A stretch of 64,000 bases of DNA from Escherichia phage 1-6af, in sequence record OR983333.1; one strand, 5' to 3'. Under the pieces are notes generated by a model. The model made no database searches and was not told the DNA's origin. It saw only the letters and a list, made by a program, of their open reading frames with translations. The position numbers and the translations under genes are program-made. Shown here piece by piece: positions 33,512 to 43,965 of this stretch (position 1 is its first letter; every line of letters begins with the position of its first letter).

Positions 33512-33664
33512 TTAGTGCGTATGCATCCAGTTAAGTCCAATCTGACAATCAGATGCCAGAGGACATTCCATGTTCAAGTACTCACCAGCTTTCTTAACGC
33601 AAAGCTCAGTGTGCTCTTTGAGTTTCTGTACATCGTTACGATTAACTGAGAACTGGCCCTCATC
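33512..33664 (-). CDS. DNA polymerase (family A, T7 gp5-like) exon 2: DEGQF...GLNWMHTH
   Basis: Encodes the D-E of the HDE motif and a T7-like C-terminus (..NW...H); preceded by in-frame TAA; not in ORF track (<60 aa). Confidence 0.6.
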   Translation of the reverse strand, partial: DEGQFSVNRNDVQKLKEHTELCVKKAGEYLNMECPLASDCQIGLNWMHTH

Positions 33665-34271
33665 CATTTATGTTATTCCCAAATTACTTCGGGTATCGGA
33701 CTATATCATAACAGCATAGCTAATTTGCTGTTGTTGGCGCTTCGAGGGTTTCCCTGTTAACCCCCTACTCCCGCAGGATAGTCTCTACACTTTCCACTTT
33801 CGAATCCATCTACAAGCGATTCCAAAGCTCACACCAAACCTTTCTGCAAGAGCAACACCAGTGCATTCATTGTTAAGCCAGAACTCTTTAGCAGCATTCT
33901 GTCTTTCTCTGTTTCTGCCAGTGTTTGACTCGATAGCATGTGCACTACCTTCTAAGATTTCTAGATGGTCAGTATTGCAACAAGCTCTATTCTTGCATTT
34001 ATGGTTAACTTCATAACCGTCAGGGATGTTTCCAAATTTCTCTTCCATGACGTATCTGTGATACATGACCCATTTGCCATTTATCATTTTTCGAAAGTAA
34101 CCATCTTTATTTAGTTTGTGTGAGATAGGGATGATACATCCTGTGCTAGTTGTTTCTAGCACTAGATCTTTCTTAGCCATATCACCTCCTAATAGCTTAG
34201 CTCGGTATTGCCCTCAACTTAATGGTCGGGTTTCACCGAGTTCACCAACTTTTACATGCACAATGAAGTTT
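33665..34271 (-). mobile_element. putative group I intron in DNA polymerase gene
   Basis: 607 nt splitting the catalytic motif MH|DE; exon 1 ends in U, intron ends in G; contains HNH ORF. Confidence 0.5.
33785..34180 (-). CDS. intron-encoded HNH endonuclease
   Basis: VNHKCKNRACCNTDHLE zinc-HNH motif; lies within the polymerase gene interruption. Confidence 0.75.
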   Translation of the reverse strand: MAKKDLVLETTSTGCIIPISHKLNKDGYFRKMINGKWVMYHRYVMEEKFGNIPDGYEVNHKCKNRACCNTDHLEILEGSAHAIESNTGRNRERQNAAKEFWLNNECTGVALAERFGVSFGIACRWIRKWKV

Positions 34272-35963
34272 ATGCATATCAATTACCTTAGCACAACGAA
34301 CCCCATCCCTCTCAATCCACTTGTTAAGGAACATCATAGCATATTTCATAACAACAGCACCAGCACATTGCAGGAGTGTGTTAAGGGCTTTATGAACCAT
34401 AACTTTACCAGTGGCATCTCGTCTCATTGTAATCTTACGACCATCAACACCAATCAAGTATCCTTGAGCAGCCTTTTCTGTCATACGATCAATGAGGATT
34501 GCAATACATGGGTTCTCTGCCAAGAAACGTGCTCGCATCACTGAACCTTCGTCAGCCCCACCACCTACAATTGAACCAAGCTTAGCATCGCCAGCACCGT
34601 AGTTGAATGCATAGATAAACGTTTTAGCGTTGTCACGAGTAGGAAGACCAGCAAGTTTCTGGTTGTGGGAGTGGATATCACCTTCAAGGAGAATATCACG
34701 ATACATAATAGCAGAAGCTAAACCACGTTCTGCCAGAGCTTTCTTAGCTGGGTTGTTCTCTTCAATTGCCTCAGCAAGCATATCCCTACACTCTTTAATG
34801 AGGTAGTGAGCGAGCATACGAAGTTCAAGCCCAGAACCATCATACCCTAAGAATACTTCTTTACCAGCGGGTATGTAATATTTGTAAGCACCTACAGGTT
34901 TGTCTTTCTTCCCCGGTTTACCTTTCTCATAAATTACGTTAGTACCTTTTCGTATATAACAACCATCAGGAACAACGTTAGTAATAACGAAAGGACGAGA
35001 ATGATCACTGTCTGAGTTATAGTCAGACTCAAACAAACTGCGACACTCGTGACCAAACAAACCACGGGAGGGAATATTAACCACGATACGATGTTTGAAT
35101 CGAAAAGTCGGCGTAGCGCAGCTGTTAGCTTCTGCCGAAAGTTTACCATCTTCGCGTTCCTTTGCTATGAGTCCACTGATAAGACCTAGCCTGTGAGCCG
35201 CTACAACGCGTCTCTTAAGCAAACTTCCGACACTCCCTAGCTCACCCCCTAACCCTTCTTCAAGAGTCTCCTCGAGGTTTGTAGGAGCTGTAGGCCACTT
35301 GTTTGAAGTGGCTAGTGCTTTCTTAATCTCATCAAACGTTACAGGATTACGTCGATTCGGGTTTAATCCCAAACCAAACACGTAAGCCTTCATATAGTTC
35401 TTAGTTTTAAACCTAAAATGCTTTTCTAAGAACTTCTTAATATCAGCGTCAACCATCTCGGCTGTCTGCTTCTGCTTAGCATTTCCTCGCATCCAAGCAG
35501 TATACCATGCTTGGTATGTTCCATACTTTCTCATATCTTTCTTAATTTCGAAAGTATTCCAAGGCTTCTTAGATACGTTAAACTCTGGAGGAAGAAAGCC
35601 CTCATCCATAAGAGCTTCTTTAACTCGTGCATCTTTCGATGGGTCAAAGTCTACGTATTCGACACAGGTGAAAGCTCCACCAATGTCTTCTCTCTTCAGC
35701 CCAACTCTATCACAATAGGCTTGAGGCCACTTCTGCAAAGCTCCAGACTTCTTAAACGGCTTCATATAAGTAGAGCCATCTAATCTCATCTTAGGTAAGA
35801 GAGGAATCAACTCTCTGTCAATATTAACAATAATCTCTTTAAGGAGGTGAACATACCACCGAGCATTTCTTCGGTTGAAACTCACTCCGTGCTTTGCTTG
35901 CTTAGAGATTATATCAGCGACAGTCATCTCTGTCAAAAATGGAAGAGCGTCCGGGTTGCTCAC
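34272..35963 (-). CDS. DNA polymerase polymerase-domain (T7 gp5-like) exon 1
   Basis: DGSGLELR, GDIHSHN, LPTRDNAKTFIY, YGAGD, ALNTLLQCAG blocks match the T7 DNA polymerase palm/fingers. Confidence 0.8.
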
Positions 35964-36405: not shown

Positions 36406-36681
36406 TCAACCTTTTGGGAATGGCATTAAAGATTCCATAGCAGATTTAATTTCGTTATTGATTCGTGAGTCACGATAAGAGATAAACTTACCTTTGCTAT
36501 CACGTAACATCACATTAGTTCTGGCTGTTAAATGAGGGAGTAATGTAATACTGGTTGGGATAGTATCAATCCCTACAGAACATCTGTCAATAGTTTTGCT
36601 TTCAGTTAACAAATAAGACCAAGTCTGCTCTGGATGGTTGGGGTATGTGTCTCGAATCTGTACCATAGCTAACTTATTCAT
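36406..36681 (-). CDS. hypothetical protein, PFPKG-tail family (paralogue A)
   Basis: C-terminus RTNVMLRDSKGKFISY...PFPKG shared with adjacent gene. Confidence 0.4.
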   Translation of the reverse strand: MNKLAMVQIRDTYPNHPEQTWSYLLTESKTIDRCSVGIDTIPTSITLLPHLTARTNVMLRDSKGKFISYRDSRINNEIKSAMESLMPFPKG

Positions 36682-36682
36682 G

Positions 36683-36940
36683 TTAAACTCCTTTAGGGAA
36701 TGGGATGAGGTTTTCTACTGCAACACGATATTCTTTCTCTACATCTTTATTCTTATAAGAAATGAATTTCCCATCAGCCCCACGGAGGATTACATTAGTA
36801 CGAGCTGTTTTTGGATTATGACCAATCTGGTTTGCAATTAGGCTGATGTTGTGTTTGACATCATGGTTATTAGTGAATTTCCACTTAGCCAGACGGTTAG
36901 TCCAAACATCAATGATAGTTACGGTTTTTACAATAGACAT
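36683..36940 (-). CDS. hypothetical protein, PFPKG-tail family (paralogue B)
   Basis: C-terminus RTNVILRGADGKFISY...PFPKG. Confidence 0.4.
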   Translation of the reverse strand: MSIVKTVTIIDVWTNRLAKWKFTNNHDVKHNISLIANQIGHNPKTARTNVILRGADGKFISYKNKDVEKEYRVAVENLIPFPKGV

Positions 36941-37253: not shown

Positions 37254-37571
37254 TTATGATGAGCTTAAAGCTCCTTTGCGTGCTCCAGCTGCTTTTCCAG
37301 CTCGATCACCACTTTTGCCGCCGTTTGAACGGTTTGAGCTGACTGATTCAACACGTAAGTTGCTTGACGCATTAGAACCTCCAGACTTGACAGCTCGTTT
37401 GTGTCCAACGTCTTTACCTCTGACAGCAGCTTTTCCATCGCGCTTTTCAACGATGCGACGTGCACGGTGGCGCTGAGCATCTCCGCTCTTGCTCCCAATT
37501 CCCGTTTCACCGCGCTTGATCGCAGTCCTTCTTTCTTGTGCATAATCTCTTTTTCCTACATGATCTGCCAT
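37254..37571 (-). CDS. highly basic Gly/Ser/Arg/Lys-rich protein (105 aa)
   Basis: Perfect RBS aggaga 6 nt before ATG 37571; overlaps two other open frames. Confidence 0.4.
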   Translation of the reverse strand: MADHVGKRDYAQERRTAIKRGETGIGSKSGDAQRHRARRIVEKRDGKAAVRGKDVGHKRAVKSGGSNASSNLRVESVSSNRSNGGKSGDRAGKAAGARKGALSSS

Positions 37572-37900
37572 TAGATTTCTCCTGATTCTCTTTGATTAAA
37601 GGTGTGGATGGCGTGGCAATTAGCACACAATATCCTGCACTTCCTCATCTCTTCTTTTACTTGAGATAAAGATCTGGTGTGCCCTTTGGAGAGTTCGAAT
37701 GACTTAGTTAATGGATTTAAATGATCAAACTGAAGAGCAGATGCGTGGCCCTTAAAGCCACACTCAGAGCATCCATAGAATGTTTTAACTCTACGAATAA
37801 AAGCTAGTTGCCTAACTCTTCTTCTCTCGTTATCTGCCTTTCTCTTATCTCTATTTCCTGGGTCGGCCCATCTACACGAGTCATTGCAAAACCTCTGCAT
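37571..37900 (-). CDS. HNH endonuclease
   Basis: CSECGF...QFDHLNP...CANCH motif. Confidence 0.6.
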   Translation of the reverse strand: MQRFCNDSCRWADPGNRDKRKADNERRRVRQLAFIRRVKTFYGCSECGFKGHASALQFDHLNPLTKSFELSKGHTRSLSQVKEEMRKCRILCANCHAIHTFNQRESGEI

Positions 37901-42971: not shown

Positions 42972-43442
42972 CTAGGAGTTTTGCCTCTTCAAGAGTTTTA
43001 CTCCATACACAGACTCACGTTTACCATCTTTTTGAACAGATACACAGAACGTCCCGCCCTTCTCTTGGTAGACATTCTTAACTCCTAGCTTGTTATCAAC
43101 CCTTGTCTTAGCATTCTGACTGTTCTCAGAGTGAGAGCACTTTCTCAGGTTAGTTTCTTCTAGGTTTTCTCTGTTACCATCGGCATGATCTATTTGATAT
43201 TCATCCGATAAATCCTCACCAGTATAAAGAACAAAAAGAATCCTATGATTATGGACACGAACTCCTCCTAAGGGAATTTGATAATACCCATCTTTTGTGA
43301 GCTTGCCATCAGGTTTACCTACTATATCATTAGCAAACTTACTAGGCTTCCTTTTCCAAGAAAGCCCTGAAGGGGATGACATGTCTATATTAAAGAGATC
43401 AACTACTTCATCATAGCATATCAGCATGATTTGTTCCACCAA
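42972..43442 (-). CDS. HNH homing endonuclease
   Basis: GVRVHNHRILF...QIDHADGNRENLEETNLRKCSHSEN HNH_3-type motif. Confidence 0.7.
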   Translation of the reverse strand: MVEQIMLICYDEVVDLFNIDMSSPSGLSWKRKPSKFANDIVGKPDGKLTKDGYYQIPLGGVRVHNHRILFVLYTGEDLSDEYQIDHADGNRENLEETNLRKCSHSENSQNAKTRVDNKLGVKNVYQEKGGTFCVSVQKDGKRESVYGVKLLKRQNS

Positions 43443-43965
43443 AAGCTTTTGTTGGCCCTTGTTGGTTATTGTATGAACCTTTAGTTGCGTAGCTATCCTC
43501 TTCCGAGGATGAGTGTTTAAAGAATTCCATCTGACCGATACGCATTCCCGGCTTGATCAGCAGAGAGTGGTGCTGTAGGACGTTCTTGAATTCCATAGTT
43601 AACTGACTGCCATGCCAACCACCGTCAGCATGACCAGCGTGCATGTGCTCTAAGAAGCAACGACCGACAGTAGATCGTAGCATGAAGTCACAGCTAATGT
43701 TGTCTGGAAGGTTGAATGTCTCCACTGTATGAGCTAAGAAACACTCACCCGGTTTGATCACCAACCCTTCCTCTGGAATCATAACCTCATTGAAATTAGG
43801 GGATTCTTTAGCAGAGATATCAACAACCCCATTAGCTGCACCTTCCATCAGAACACGATCTCCAATACGAACATCAATGCTGGAGGAATTAACAGCTGAG
43901 TGTGGTGCATCAATAACACCATCATCAATTAATTTATGTAACTCTGGGCTTCCTAGTAAACTCAT
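43411..43965 (-). CDS. dcd: dCTP deaminase (dUTPase superfamily)
   Basis: N-terminal ...IDVRIGD and C-terminal G.QLTMEF.N....L.KPGMRIGQMEF as in Dcd. Confidence 0.7.
   Translation of the reverse strand: MSLLGSPELHKLIDDGVIDAPHSAVNSSSIDVRIGDRVLMEGAANGVVDISAKESPNFNEVMIPEEGLVIKPGECFLAHTVETFNLPDNISCDFMLRSTVGRCFLEHMHAGHADGGWHGSQLTMEFKNVLQHHSLLIKPGMRIGQMEFFKHSSSEEDSYATKGSYNNQQGPTKAFGGTNHADML

What the first reader, a model, noticed from the sequence alone, without database searches (positions are those of the whole stretch)
33512..34274. DNA polymerase gene interrupted inside the HDE catalytic motif by a 607-nt intron-like element carrying an HNH endonuclease
The T7-like polymerase ORF ends ...AKVIDMH then 9 unrelated codons and a stop. 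The missing conserved C-terminus (DEGQF...GLNWMHTH, matching T7 gp5 ...WVHDEIQV...GPNWAICH) resumes 607 nt downstream in the same strand, preceded by an in-frame TAA. Joining ...VIDMH to DEGQF... restores the invariant HDE motif. The 5' exon ends in U and the insert ends in G, as expected for group I introns, and the insert contains a complete HNH ORF (33785..34180). Self-splicing group I introns with HNH ORFs at DNA polymerase genes are known in T7-like phages and SPO1.
Basis: partly seen in the sequence, partly recalled or inferred. Interest (0 to 1): 0.65.

Follow-up and report, generated by a model that had tools for sequence, protein, structure and literature searches.

The report
Self-splicing intron in phage DNA polymerase
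The DNA polymerase gene of this phiEco32-like (Kuravirus) coliphage is interrupted by a 607-nt mobile group I intron carrying its own homing endonuclease, the same intron family already shown to self-splice in T7-like phages, so it is a real but ordinary feature.

Summary
On the minus strand, the family A DNA polymerase ORF is broken after ...VIDMH (His codon 34274..34272). It resumes with DEGQF... at 33664, and the insert is 33665..34271 (607 nt). Related Kuravirus phages without the insert read ...ATGCAT|GATGAG... contiguously and are exactly 607 nt shorter. The insert is a subgroup IA2 group I intron. It has the P1 U·G pair, a 7-bp P10, P3–P9 with P7.1/P7.2 joined by GUA, the R and S core sequences and a terminal G. 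In an alignment of 13 related introns, 98% of cells pair, against 35–43% in shifted controls, and 16 pairs show compensatory changes. Rfam's group I model matches only below threshold (26 bits against 50), in line with the 396-nt HNH ORF that lies between the two halves of the core. That ORF is 60% identical, without gaps, to I-TslI of the phage ΦI polymerase intron. A paper I read reports the ΦI and W31 introns as group I introns at this same H|DE site. The ribozyme parts are 96–100% identical among Kuravirus-group phages whose flanking exons are only 64–88% identical. About 10 of 97 related records carry the intron. Verdict: new member of a known kind, and low interest. Splicing and endonuclease activity are inferred, not shown.

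The parts
34272..35963 (-). Exon 1 of the family A DNA polymerase gene. It ends with the His codon CAU at 34274..34272. If the RNA is not spliced, the reading frame runs on for 9 codons to a stop at 34242.
   Evidence: ORF list. Pfam DNA_pol_A, E=1.4e-13. The intron-less allele is contiguous at this point.
33665..34271 (-). Group I intron, subgroup IA2, 607 nt. It runs from AAACUU... to ...AAAUG, with the terminal G at 33665.
   Evidence: It is precisely absent from intron-less Kuravirus alleles. Rfam Intron_gpI gives partial matches. Covariation supports the structure. It is homologous to the T7-like polymerase introns.
34256..34277 (-). P1. Exon bases AUGCAU (34277..34272) pair with the internal guide sequence GUGCAU (34261..34256), with a U·G pair at the splice site. 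The helix is extended by AA/UU inside the intron.
   Evidence: Read from the sequence. It is recovered by the MFE fold. U·G is present in 13 of 13 relatives, and the outermost pair covaries G-C to A-U between exon and guide.
34262..34268 (-). The P10 strand of the guide sequence, CUUCAUU. It pairs with the first 7 nt of exon 2, GAUGAGG (33664..33658).
   Evidence: Sequence. About 91% of cells pair across relatives, with compensatory changes, for example Vp_R1 GAC paired with G.
34199..34249 (-). The 5' half of the core. It contains P3 5' GUUGGUG (34249..34243), P4 UCGGUG/UACCGA (34239..34234 with 34207..34202), P5 and P5a (34230..34225 with 34218..34211), and P6 5' GCU (34201..34199).
   Evidence: Rfam alignment of the 5' half. 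MFE fold. Covariation: P3 has 5 covarying pairs, P5 has 2 and P6 has 1.
33785..34180 (-). HNH homing endonuclease ORF, 131 aa. It sits in the P6a loop, and its last codons form the 3' strands of P6a (GUGG, 33797..33794) and P6 (AGU, 33791..33789). A Shine-Dalgarno sequence AGGAGG lies at 34190..34185.
   Evidence: Pfam HNH_3. PHROG 6254 HNH endonuclease, E=2e-41. 60% identical to I-TslI of phage PhiI. The His and Asn residues of the motif are invariant. 26 synonymous against 3 non-synonymous codon differences versus PE006.
33665..33784 (-). The 3' half of the core. In order: P7 5' GACUA (33783..33779); P7.1 UCC-UGCG-GGA (33778..33769); the GUA linker (33768..33766); P7.2 GGGGGUU/AACCCUC (33765..33744); P3 3' CGCCAAC (33739..33733); P8 AACAGCA/UGCUGUU (33732..33710); J8/7 and P7 3' AUGAUA-UAGUC (33709..33699); P9 CCCGAA-GUAA-UUUGGG (33693..33678); terminal G at 33665.
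   Evidence: Rfam Intron_gpI, 26.2 bits, with AGACUA and GAUAUAGUC matched to the consensus. MFE fold. Covariation in P8 and P9. 100% identical to PE006, although the ORF between the two halves differs at 30 positions.
33512..33664 (-). Exon 2 of the DNA polymerase gene. It begins GAU GAG (the Asp and Glu of the HDE motif), encodes 50 codons, and has its stop codon at 33514..33512.
   Evidence: It aligns to the C-terminal end of T7 DNA polymerase.

Best explanation
This is a mobile, self-splicing group I intron of subgroup IA2, inserted between the His and Asp codons of the catalytic HDE motif (motif C) of the family A DNA polymerase gene of a Kuravirus coliphage.

Inferred mechanism. The polymerase gene is transcribed through the intron. 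The intron RNA folds into P1-P10. An external guanosine attacks after the exon's last U, which is held in a U·G pair with the guide sequence GUGCAU. P10 (CUUCAUU with GAUGAGG) then positions exon 2, and the freed exon 1 attacks after the terminal G. This ligates ...AUG CAU|GAU GAG... and restores an mRNA for a 614-aa polymerase.

The 131-aa HNH protein encoded in the P6a loop is most likely a site-specific homing endonuclease. In mixed infections it would cut or nick intron-less polymerase alleles near ...TGCAT|GATGAG..., so that repair copies the intron in.

Shown here: the exact insertion, the conserved and covarying RNA structure, homology to the PhiI-type polymerase intron and its I-TslI protein, purifying selection on the ribozyme and the ORF, and the patchy distribution. 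Inferred: that splicing occurs in this phage, and that the endonuclease is active and drives homing.
For: 1. Intron-less relatives are contiguous and exactly 607 nt shorter at this point.
2. The sequence shows a U·G pair at the 5' splice site, a terminal G, and a 6-bp P1 plus a 7-bp P10 that use adjacent parts of one guide sequence.
3. Rfam Intron_gpI matches both halves. The 3' half scores 26.2 bits (E=2e-4 in the 1-kb search, 0.014 for the whole window) and matches the consensus AGACUA and GAUAUAGUC. It is the only such hit in 64 kb.
4. Covariation was counted on 13 ORF-less introns from Kuravirus, Suseptimavirus, T7-like, Vibrio, Edwardsiella and Klebsiella phages. Of the cells, 98.3% pair, against 35-43% when partners are slid. 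Sixteen of 51 pairs have changes on both sides. None of 500 shuffles reach the observed covariation score.
5. MFE folding independently recovers P1, P4, P5, P7.1, P7.2, P8 and P9.
6. The P7.1/P7.2 pair joined by GUA and the absence of P2 match the IA2 criteria quoted in PMC3428280.
7. The insertion site is the same as in the T7-like phage introns..GCAU|GAUGAR... PMC3428280 gives this as E. coli Pol I site 881 for PhiI and W31.
8. The HNH protein is 60% identical to I-TslI of phage PhiI over all 131 residues with no gaps.
9. The ribozyme segments are 96-100% identical among Kuravirus-group introns, while the ORF is 79-92% and the flanking exons 64-88% identical. ORF differences are mostly synonymous.
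10. Only about 10 of 97 related phage records carry the intron. PAS59 combines SU7-like exons with a window-like intron.
11. The unspliced exon 1 product would lack the Asp and Glu of motif C, yet intron-bearing phages are viable isolates.
Against: The Rfam group I model does not reach its gathering score (26.2 against 50 bits) and is silent in the default scan. My reading is that the ORF separating the two halves of the core lowers the score.

No RNA data were available, so splicing in this phage is not demonstrated.

P7.2 differs from the T7-like version and is invariant among the Kuravirus copies, so it has no covariation support of its own.

Exon 2 happens to start right after an AUG (33667..33665). 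Separate translation of a 51-aa C-terminal peptide therefore cannot be excluded from sequence alone.

The HNH protein has no detectable sequence relative with a solved structure, and I could not read any paper that tests I-TslI activity.
Confidence: 0.93

Rival explanations
1. A split gene without splicing. In this reading a free-standing homing endonuclease gene has fractured the polymerase gene. The polymerase would be made as two polypeptides, 573 aa and 51 aa, that assemble non-covalently.
For: The exon 2 ORF begins with its own AUG (33667..33665), immediately before the Asp codon. GenBank annotators of SU7, ECBP2 and PE006 list two separate polymerase CDSs, and for SU7 even a ribosome-binding site.
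Against: The non-coding flanks of the ORF form a covarying group I fold. They are more conserved (96-100%) than either the ORF or the exons, which a mere intergenic spacer would not explain. The AUG is absent in the homologous T7-like, Vibrio and Klebsiella RCIP0053 introns, which end ...AAAG or ...AUAG. The break falls inside the catalytic His-Asp-Glu triplet and would leave 9 foreign residues on fragment 1. The upstream GGGA sits in the P9 stem.
Confidence: 0.04
2. A decayed intron. The element descends from a group I intron but no longer splices efficiently, or its endonuclease is inactive. It would persist only as a vertically inherited relic.
For: Activity was not tested. P7.2 is shorter than in the T7-like relatives and has no covariation support. 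The Rfam score is low.
Against: The DNA polymerase is presumably essential, and the intron-bearing phages are viable isolates. All core helices are intact in this copy. There are zero substitutions in 211 ribozyme positions versus PE006, against 30 in the ORF. The ORF is under purifying selection, with 26 synonymous and 3 non-synonymous codon differences, and the HNH residues are invariant. The mosaic PAS59 arrangement points to recent movement.
Confidence: 0.03

Closest known systems
Group IA2 introns in the DNA polymerase genes (gene 5) of the T7-like phages PhiI and W31, which encode the HNH protein I-TslI (Bonocora & Shub 2004, as described in PMC3428280). The same intron is annotated as a joined CDS in phages 13a and K1F.
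   Same: The insertion point is the same, between His and Asp of the HDE motif (Pol I site 881), with ..GCAU|GAUGAR.. at the junction. The architecture is the same: no P2, P7.1 and P7.2 linked by GUA, and a 131-aa HNH ORF that starts in P6a and ends just before P7. DNA identity is 65-69% and HNH identity is 54-60%, with equal length and no gaps.
   Different: The host is a Kuravirus (Gordonclarkvirinae). Its polymerase is only about 27% identical to that of 13a and lacks the exonuclease domain (PMC9965538). The guide sequence is re-tuned to the local exon (AUGCAU/GUGCAU instead of GUGCAU/GUGCAC). P5 carries a 9-nt extension, P8 is longer (7 bp), and P7.2 is shorter. Splicing has not been tested for this copy.
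[quoted passage not shown] It is not annotated as an intron in the record.
   Same: It has the closest HNH outside the Kuravirus group (65%) and 69% DNA identity, at the same H|DE site. Its polymerase is also the closest host gene (48% identity).
   Different: The stems of P3, P8 and P9 differ but stay paired through compensatory changes. The 3' tail after P9 is longer, and exon 2 starts GAC.
The polymerase-gene introns of SPO1, SP82 and Bastille (I-HmuI, I-HmuII, I-BasI) and of cyanophage Pf-WMP3 (I-PfoP3I).
   Same: These are also group IA2 introns with HNH endonuclease ORFs in family A DNA polymerase genes of phages. PMC3428280 reports self-splicing for the Pf-WMP3 intron, and PMC11878797 for the SPO1 and Bastille introns.
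   Different: The insertion site is different (Pol I position 674, fingers subdomain). The endonucleases are larger, with the HNH motif placed differently. I-HmuI, whose structure I recall as solved, did not turn up in the PDB sequence search with the window's HNH protein, nor did any other chain.

Membership tests
Group I intron | The 5' exon ends in U, which forms a U·G wobble with an internal guide sequence (P1). | tested here: met
   AUGCAU (34277..34272) pairs with GUGCAU (34261..34256). U·G is present in 13 of 13 relatives, and the outer pair covaries between exon and guide.
Group I intron | The last intron nucleotide is G, and a P10 pairing forms between the guide sequence and the start of the 3' exon. 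| tested here: met
   The intron ends ...AAAUG at 33665. CUUCAUU pairs with GAUGAGG over 7 bp. About 91% of P10 cells pair across relatives, with 2 covarying pairs.
Group I intron | A conserved catalytic core made of P3-P9, including the P3/P7 pseudoknot. | tested here: met
   All helices are present. 98.3% of cells pair, against 35-43% in slid controls, and 16 pairs have changes on both sides. P4 and P7 never vary, so they add no covariation evidence.
Group I intron | A match to the curated covariance model (Rfam RF00028) at its gathering score. | tested here: not met
   The score is 26.2 bits against a gathering score of 50 (E=2e-4 in 1 kb, 0.014 in 64 kb). The 5' half scores 11 bits separately. 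The ORF of more than 400 nt in P6a separates the two halves, which I take to be the reason for the low score. The consensus R and S elements are matched.
Group I intron | Precise absence from homologous alleles, and restoration of the reading frame on removal. | tested here: met
   Ptacy1479 and many other Kuravirus records are exactly 607 nt shorter and contiguous. The joined product aligns with T7 DNA polymerase to its C-terminus.
Group I intron | Guanosine-dependent self-splicing of the RNA. | not testable with these tools
   This needs in vitro transcription or RT-PCR. PMC3428280 cites Bonocora & Shub 2004, whose title calls the homologous PhiI and W31 introns self-splicing; I could not read that paper.
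Subgroup IA2 | Extra helices P7.1 and P7.2 between P7 and P3', linked by G-U-A (the criterion as quoted in PMC3428280). | tested here: met
   UCC-UGCG-GGA, then GUA, then GGGGGUU...AACCCUC, at 33778..33744. P7.1 and P7.2 are recovered by MFE folding. P7.2 has no covariation support within the Kuravirus copies.
HNH homing endonuclease (I-TslI-like, intron-encoded) | An HNH (His-Me finger) catalytic domain with conserved His and Asn residues. | tested here: met
   Pfam HNH_3, 45.2 bits against a cut-off of 24.8. H60, N69, H72 and H81, and C62 and C67, are invariant in 7 homologues from 4 phage groups.
HNH homing endonuclease (I-TslI-like, intron-encoded) | Homology to a named intron endonuclease at the same site. 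| tested here: met
   60% identity and 76% positives over 131 of 131 residues to I-TslI (AAV53690, phage PhiI), E=1e-63.
HNH homing endonuclease (I-TslI-like, intron-encoded) | Site-specific cleavage or nicking of the intron-less allele, and intron homing in mixed infection. | not testable with these tools
   Only indirect signs are available: the intron is present in about 10 of 97 related records, and PAS59 shows an exon/intron mosaic.

The most novel reading that the evidence does not exclude
Probability: 0.6. Interest if true: 0.35.

Novelty: new member of a known kind. Interest (0 to 1): 0.22.

Why it matters
Three practical points follow.

First, the polymerase of these Kuravirus phages should be annotated as one joined CDS of 614 aa. 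At present it appears as "DNA polymerase / homing endonuclease / DNA polymerase" or as hypothetical proteins. The closest records, 1-6bf and FH3, list only hypothetical proteins.

Second, the known host range of the PhiI/W31-type polymerase intron extends from T7-like phages to C3-morphotype Kuravirus phages and a Vibrio phage. This illustrates lateral spread through a universally conserved catalytic motif.

Third, intron-plus and intron-minus Kuravirus isolates exist side by side. That gives a convenient pair for homing or competition experiments in therapeutic-phage candidates.

None of this changes current understanding of group I introns.

Tried and rejected
- The default Rfam scan of the whole window (gathering thresholds) found no intron. 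Only the permissive scans did.
- A PDB sequence search with the HNH protein found nothing, even at E up to 1.
- I could not obtain Bonocora & Shub 2004 by DOI or by PMC id. What I say about PhiI and W31 rests on PMC3428280, on the reference entry in PMC11878797, and on sequence comparison with I-TslI.
- I considered a local hairpin that would sequester the HNH start codon (AGCUAU...AUGGCU). It is not the MFE structure in the window copy, and the folds are no better than shuffled sequence (z between +0.5 and -1.4). I dropped it as unsupported.
- An intein was rejected, because the insert has in-frame stops and the HNH ORF has its own Shine-Dalgarno sequence and start codon.
- The sigma-70 and terminator scans found nothing distinctive inside the intron.
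- MAFFT did not place P8 or P7.2 in register between the Kuravirus and T7-like copies. Only the two outer P8 pairs were counted, and P7.2 was left out of the covariation count.
- Literature searches for an intron in Kuravirus, phiEco32-like phages, SU7, ECBP2 or Vp_R1 found no description. The library is incomplete, so this is absence of evidence only.
Full report
**1. What is in the sequence**

All genes in this part of the window are on the minus strand. The ORF 34242..35963(-) is a family A DNA polymerase (Pfam DNA_pol_A, E=1.4e-13). It ends ...RCAKVIDMH, followed by nine unrelated codons (KLHCACKSW) and a stop. Downstream lie a 131-aa ORF at 33785..34180(-) with an HNH_3 domain (E=7e-12) and a 51-codon ORF at 33512..33667(-) reading M-DEGQFSVNRN...GLNWMHTH, preceded by an in-frame TAA.

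The His codon is 34274..34272 and the Asp codon is 33664..33662, so the intervening sequence is 33665..34271, exactly 607 nt. Joining the two parts gives a 614-aa protein. It aligns with T7 DNA polymerase right to the last residue (E=4e-33), with MHDEGQ opposite VHDEIQ and GLNWMHTH opposite GPNWAICH.

**2. Origin of the window, and a natural deletion control**

The region is 99.9% and 99.4% identical to Escherichia phages 1-6bf and FH3. It belongs to the phiEco32-like group (Kuravirus, Gordonclarkvirinae). Of 97 related phage records, only about 10 cover the whole query (7 phages: 1-6bf, FH3, PE006, pEC-N1203-2Af.1, PAS59, ECBP2, SU7). The intron-less records listed match in two pieces, and the full-length ones span 2094 nt, which is 2701 minus 607.

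In phage Ptacy1479 the polymerase CDS is uninterrupted. It reads ...AAGGTAATTGATATGCAT|GATGAGGGCCAA..., encoding ...AKVIDMHDEGQFSVNRN.... The bases on either side of each boundary differ, so the insertion point is unambiguous. The insert is therefore a discrete, optional element, not a frameshift, an assembly error or a diverged stretch of coding sequence.

**3. The RNA**

The sequence shows the group I hallmarks directly:
- The exon ends in U, which pairs with the G of the guide sequence. P1 is AUGCAU (34277..34272) with GUGCAU (34261..34256).
- The adjacent guide bases CUUCAUU (34268..34262) pair with the first seven bases of exon 2, GAUGAGG. This is P10.
- The intron ends in G (33665).

The core can be read off as follows:

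| Helix | Sequence |
|---|---|
| P3 | GUUGGUG / CGCCAAC |
| P4 | UCGGUG / UACCGA |
| P5 (+P5a) | CCC(GAC) / (GUU)GAGGG |
| P6 | GCU / AGU |
| P6a | CUAU / GUGG |
| P7 | GACUA / UAGUC |
| P7.1 | UCC-UGCG-GGA |
| linker | GUA |
| P7.2 | GGGGGUU / AACCCUC |
| P8 | AACAGCA / UGCUGUU |
| P9 | CCCGAA-GUAA-UUUGGG |

Minimum-free-energy folding of the two non-coding segments, done without any constraint, recovers P1, P4, P5, P7.1, P7.2, P8 and P9. The absence of P2, together with P7.1 and P7.2 joined by G-U-A, is the criterion for subgroup IA2 quoted in PMC3428280.

Rfam's Intron_gpI model does not reach its gathering score. It finds nothing in the default scan. In the permissive scan the 3' half scores 26.2 bits (E=2e-4 in 1 kb, 0.014 for the whole 64 kb), with the consensus AGACUA and GAUAUAGUC elements matched. 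The 5' half scores 11 bits separately. It is the only Intron_gpI hit in the window. I attribute the low score to the ORF of more than 400 nt in P6a, which separates the two halves of the model. I could not test this, because the tool does not accept an ORF-deleted construct.

**4. Comparative test of the structure**

A sensitive DNA search with the 607 nt found related inserts at 65-69% identity. They lie in the DNA polymerase genes of many T7-like phages (13a, K1F, VSG32, LNA7, Ro45lw and others), of Vibrio phage Vp_R1, and of Edwardsiella and Klebsiella phages. In sixteen fetched loci the element sits at the same place...GCAU|intron...G|GA(U/C)GA(R). GenBank already annotates the 13a, K1F, JeanTinguely and MeretOppenheim polymerases as joined CDSs.

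I removed the ORFs, aligned 13 distinct sequences (A1) and counted 51 proposed pairs:
- 98.3% of cells form standard pairs, against 35-43% when the 3' partners are slid by 1-3 columns.
- Sixteen pairs have changes on both sides.
- None of 500 shuffles reaches the observed covariation score, percentage paired, or count of pairs changed on both sides; one of the five measures, the number of further pair types, is no higher than in the shuffles (28 observed against a mean of 28.0).
- P3 has five covarying pairs, P9 three, P5 two, and P6, P6a and P8 one each.
- P4, P7 and P7.1 never vary, so they say nothing either way.

Two covariations link intron and exon. The outer P1 pair is G-C where the exon codon is GUG (the T7-like, Edwardsiella and Klebsiella copies) and A-U where it is AUG (Kuravirus and Vp_R1). 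In Vp_R1 the exon 2 codon GAC is matched by a G in the P10 strand. The guide sequence has thus been tuned to each host gene.

There are caveats. The 13 sequences are related, the structure was derived from these same sequences, and P8 and P7.2 could not be put fully in register.

**5. Selection and mobility**

Within the Kuravirus group the ribozyme segments are 96-100% identical. The HNH ORF is 79-92% identical and the flanking exons are 64-88% identical (window against SU7, ECBP2 and PAS59). Against PE006, all 30 differences in the 607 nt fall inside the ORF and none in the 211 ribozyme positions. Of the 29 codons that differ, 26 are synonymous. Both the RNA and the protein are therefore under purifying selection.

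PAS59 has SU7-like exons (93-100% identity, including the 50 nt on each side of the intron). Its intron ORF, however, is closer to the window type (87.6% against 78.0%). The intron and its host gene thus have different histories.

Across families, the polymerases are only 26-27% identical (13a, K1F) or 48% identical (Vp_R1) to the window's polymerase. Beyond an 11-nt TGCAT|GAYGAG core, the flanking DNA is only 30-58% identical to the window's, lowest for the T7-like copies. The HNH proteins, by contrast, are 54-65% identical. This is the pattern expected for a homing element that targets a highly conserved catalytic motif.

**6. The protein**

The 131-aa ORF matches Pfam HNH_3 and PHROG 6254 "HNH endonuclease". 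I-TslI of phage PhiI (AAV53690) falls in the same 90% cluster as the 13a and VSG32 intron ORFs. It is 60% identical to the window protein over all 131 residues, with no gaps (E=1e-63). The His, Asn and Cys residues of the motif are invariant in seven homologues. The ORF has a strong Shine-Dalgarno sequence (AGGAGG, 34190..34185). Its last codons supply the 3' strands of P6a and P6, and its stop codon abuts P7. No sequence relative with a solved structure was found.

**7. Comparison with what is known**

According to PMC3428280, the first group I introns in T7-like enteric phages were described in 2004 in the DNA polymerase genes of PhiI and W31. They are subgroup IA2, the endonuclease ORF is inserted in P6a, and they sit at E. 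coli Pol I position 881, which is the His of the HDE motif. Their self-splicing rests on the title of Bonocora & Shub 2004, as listed in PMC11878797. The SPO1, SP82, Bastille and Pf-WMP3 introns sit at position 674, and the phiL7 intron at 676.

The window's element is a diverged member of the PhiI/W31 lineage in a different phage family. It differs in five ways:
- the guide sequence is re-tuned to the local exon;
- P5 carries a 9-nt extension;
- P8 is longer;
- P7.2 is shorter;
- the host polymerase lacks the exonuclease domain, which is encoded separately in this group (PMC9965538).

I found no paper that mentions an intron in Kuravirus or phiEco32-like phages. GenBank records either list three separate CDSs or only hypothetical proteins.

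**8. Rival explanations**

A split gene, translated as two peptides after invasion by a free-standing endonuclease gene, is suggested only by the AUG that happens to precede exon 2 in the Kuravirus copies. That AUG is absent in the T7-like, Vibrio and Klebsiella RCIP0053 homologues. This rival also does not explain a covarying, highly conserved RNA fold. I give it about 4%.

A decayed, non-functional relic is unlikely, because the phages are viable and the selection pattern argues against it. I give it about 3%.

An intein is excluded by the in-frame stops.

**9. Verdict**

This is a group IA2 self-splicing intron with an I-TslI-like HNH homing endonuclease, at the H|DE site of a Kuravirus DNA polymerase gene. 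It is a new member of a known kind. Its interest is low: it corrects annotation and gives a tidy example of cross-family spread of an intron. Splicing and endonuclease activity remain inferred, and the decisive experiments are listed separately.

Noticed in passing
window 35908..35936 (-): A perfect sigma-70 consensus promoter (TTGACA, 17-nt spacer, TATAAT, with an upstream TG; 12 of 12 matches) lies inside the first 60 nt of the polymerase ORF. A 12-of-12 match is rare by chance. It might drive transcription that starts inside the annotated ORF, or it might mean that the real start codon lies further downstream.
   Followed up: no
window 42972..43442 (-): A second HNH_3 endonuclease ORF (156 aa, E=1.7e-9) overlaps the 3' end of the dCTP deaminase-like ORF 43411..43965. 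The region is fully present in only 9 of 68 related phage records. It looks like a sporadic free-standing homing endonuclease gene. No group I signal lies nearby.
   Followed up: partly
window 37571..37900 (-): A third, weaker HNH ORF (109 aa, PF01844 at 21.0 bits, just under the 21.4 cut-off) lies downstream of the PhoH-like gene. This stretch is present in only 2 of 98 related records. Another record (YF01) annotates an HNH homing endonuclease at its partial (37%) match to this stretch.
   Followed up: partly
window 61499..61577 (-): Rfam calls a tRNA here at 29.7 bits, just above the gathering score of 29, with a 20-nt insertion in the variable region. ARAGORN finds no tRNA anywhere in the window. 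Kuravirus phages are reported to carry one tRNA (PMC9965538), so this may be an atypical tRNA.
   Followed up: partly
L008 (Escherichia phage PAS59) 1..1407: This locus is a mosaic. Its polymerase exons are 93-100% identical to SU7, but its intron ORF is closer to the window type (87.6%) than to SU7 (78.0%). No co-conversion tract is visible in the 50 nt next to the intron.
   Followed up: partly
L015 (Edwardsiella phage DT115P1) and L017 (Klebsiella phage RCIP0053), just 3' of P1: These copies of the same polymerase intron carry an extra hairpin, ACGUCGAGUAAUUGACGU, between P1 and P3. It occupies the position of a P2 element and is absent from the Kuravirus, T7-like and Vibrio copies.
   Followed up: no
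window 36406..36681 and 36683..36940 (-): Two adjacent small ORFs (91 and 85 aa) share a C-terminal pattern...ARTNV.LR...GKFISY.......PFPKG. They look like a tandem duplication of unknown function, just upstream of the polymerase operon.
   Followed up: no
Hits H87-H90 (Rhizobium phage RHph_N3_13, Aeromonas phages phiA047 and PhAER-3, Salmonella phage PVP-SE1): The 5' core of the intron (query positions about 17-77, covering P3 to P6) matches at 80-83% identity. In PVP-SE1 the match lies under a primase/helicase gene; in the other three no annotated feature is listed under it. A related ribozyme core may therefore occur in genes other than the polymerase.
   Followed up: no
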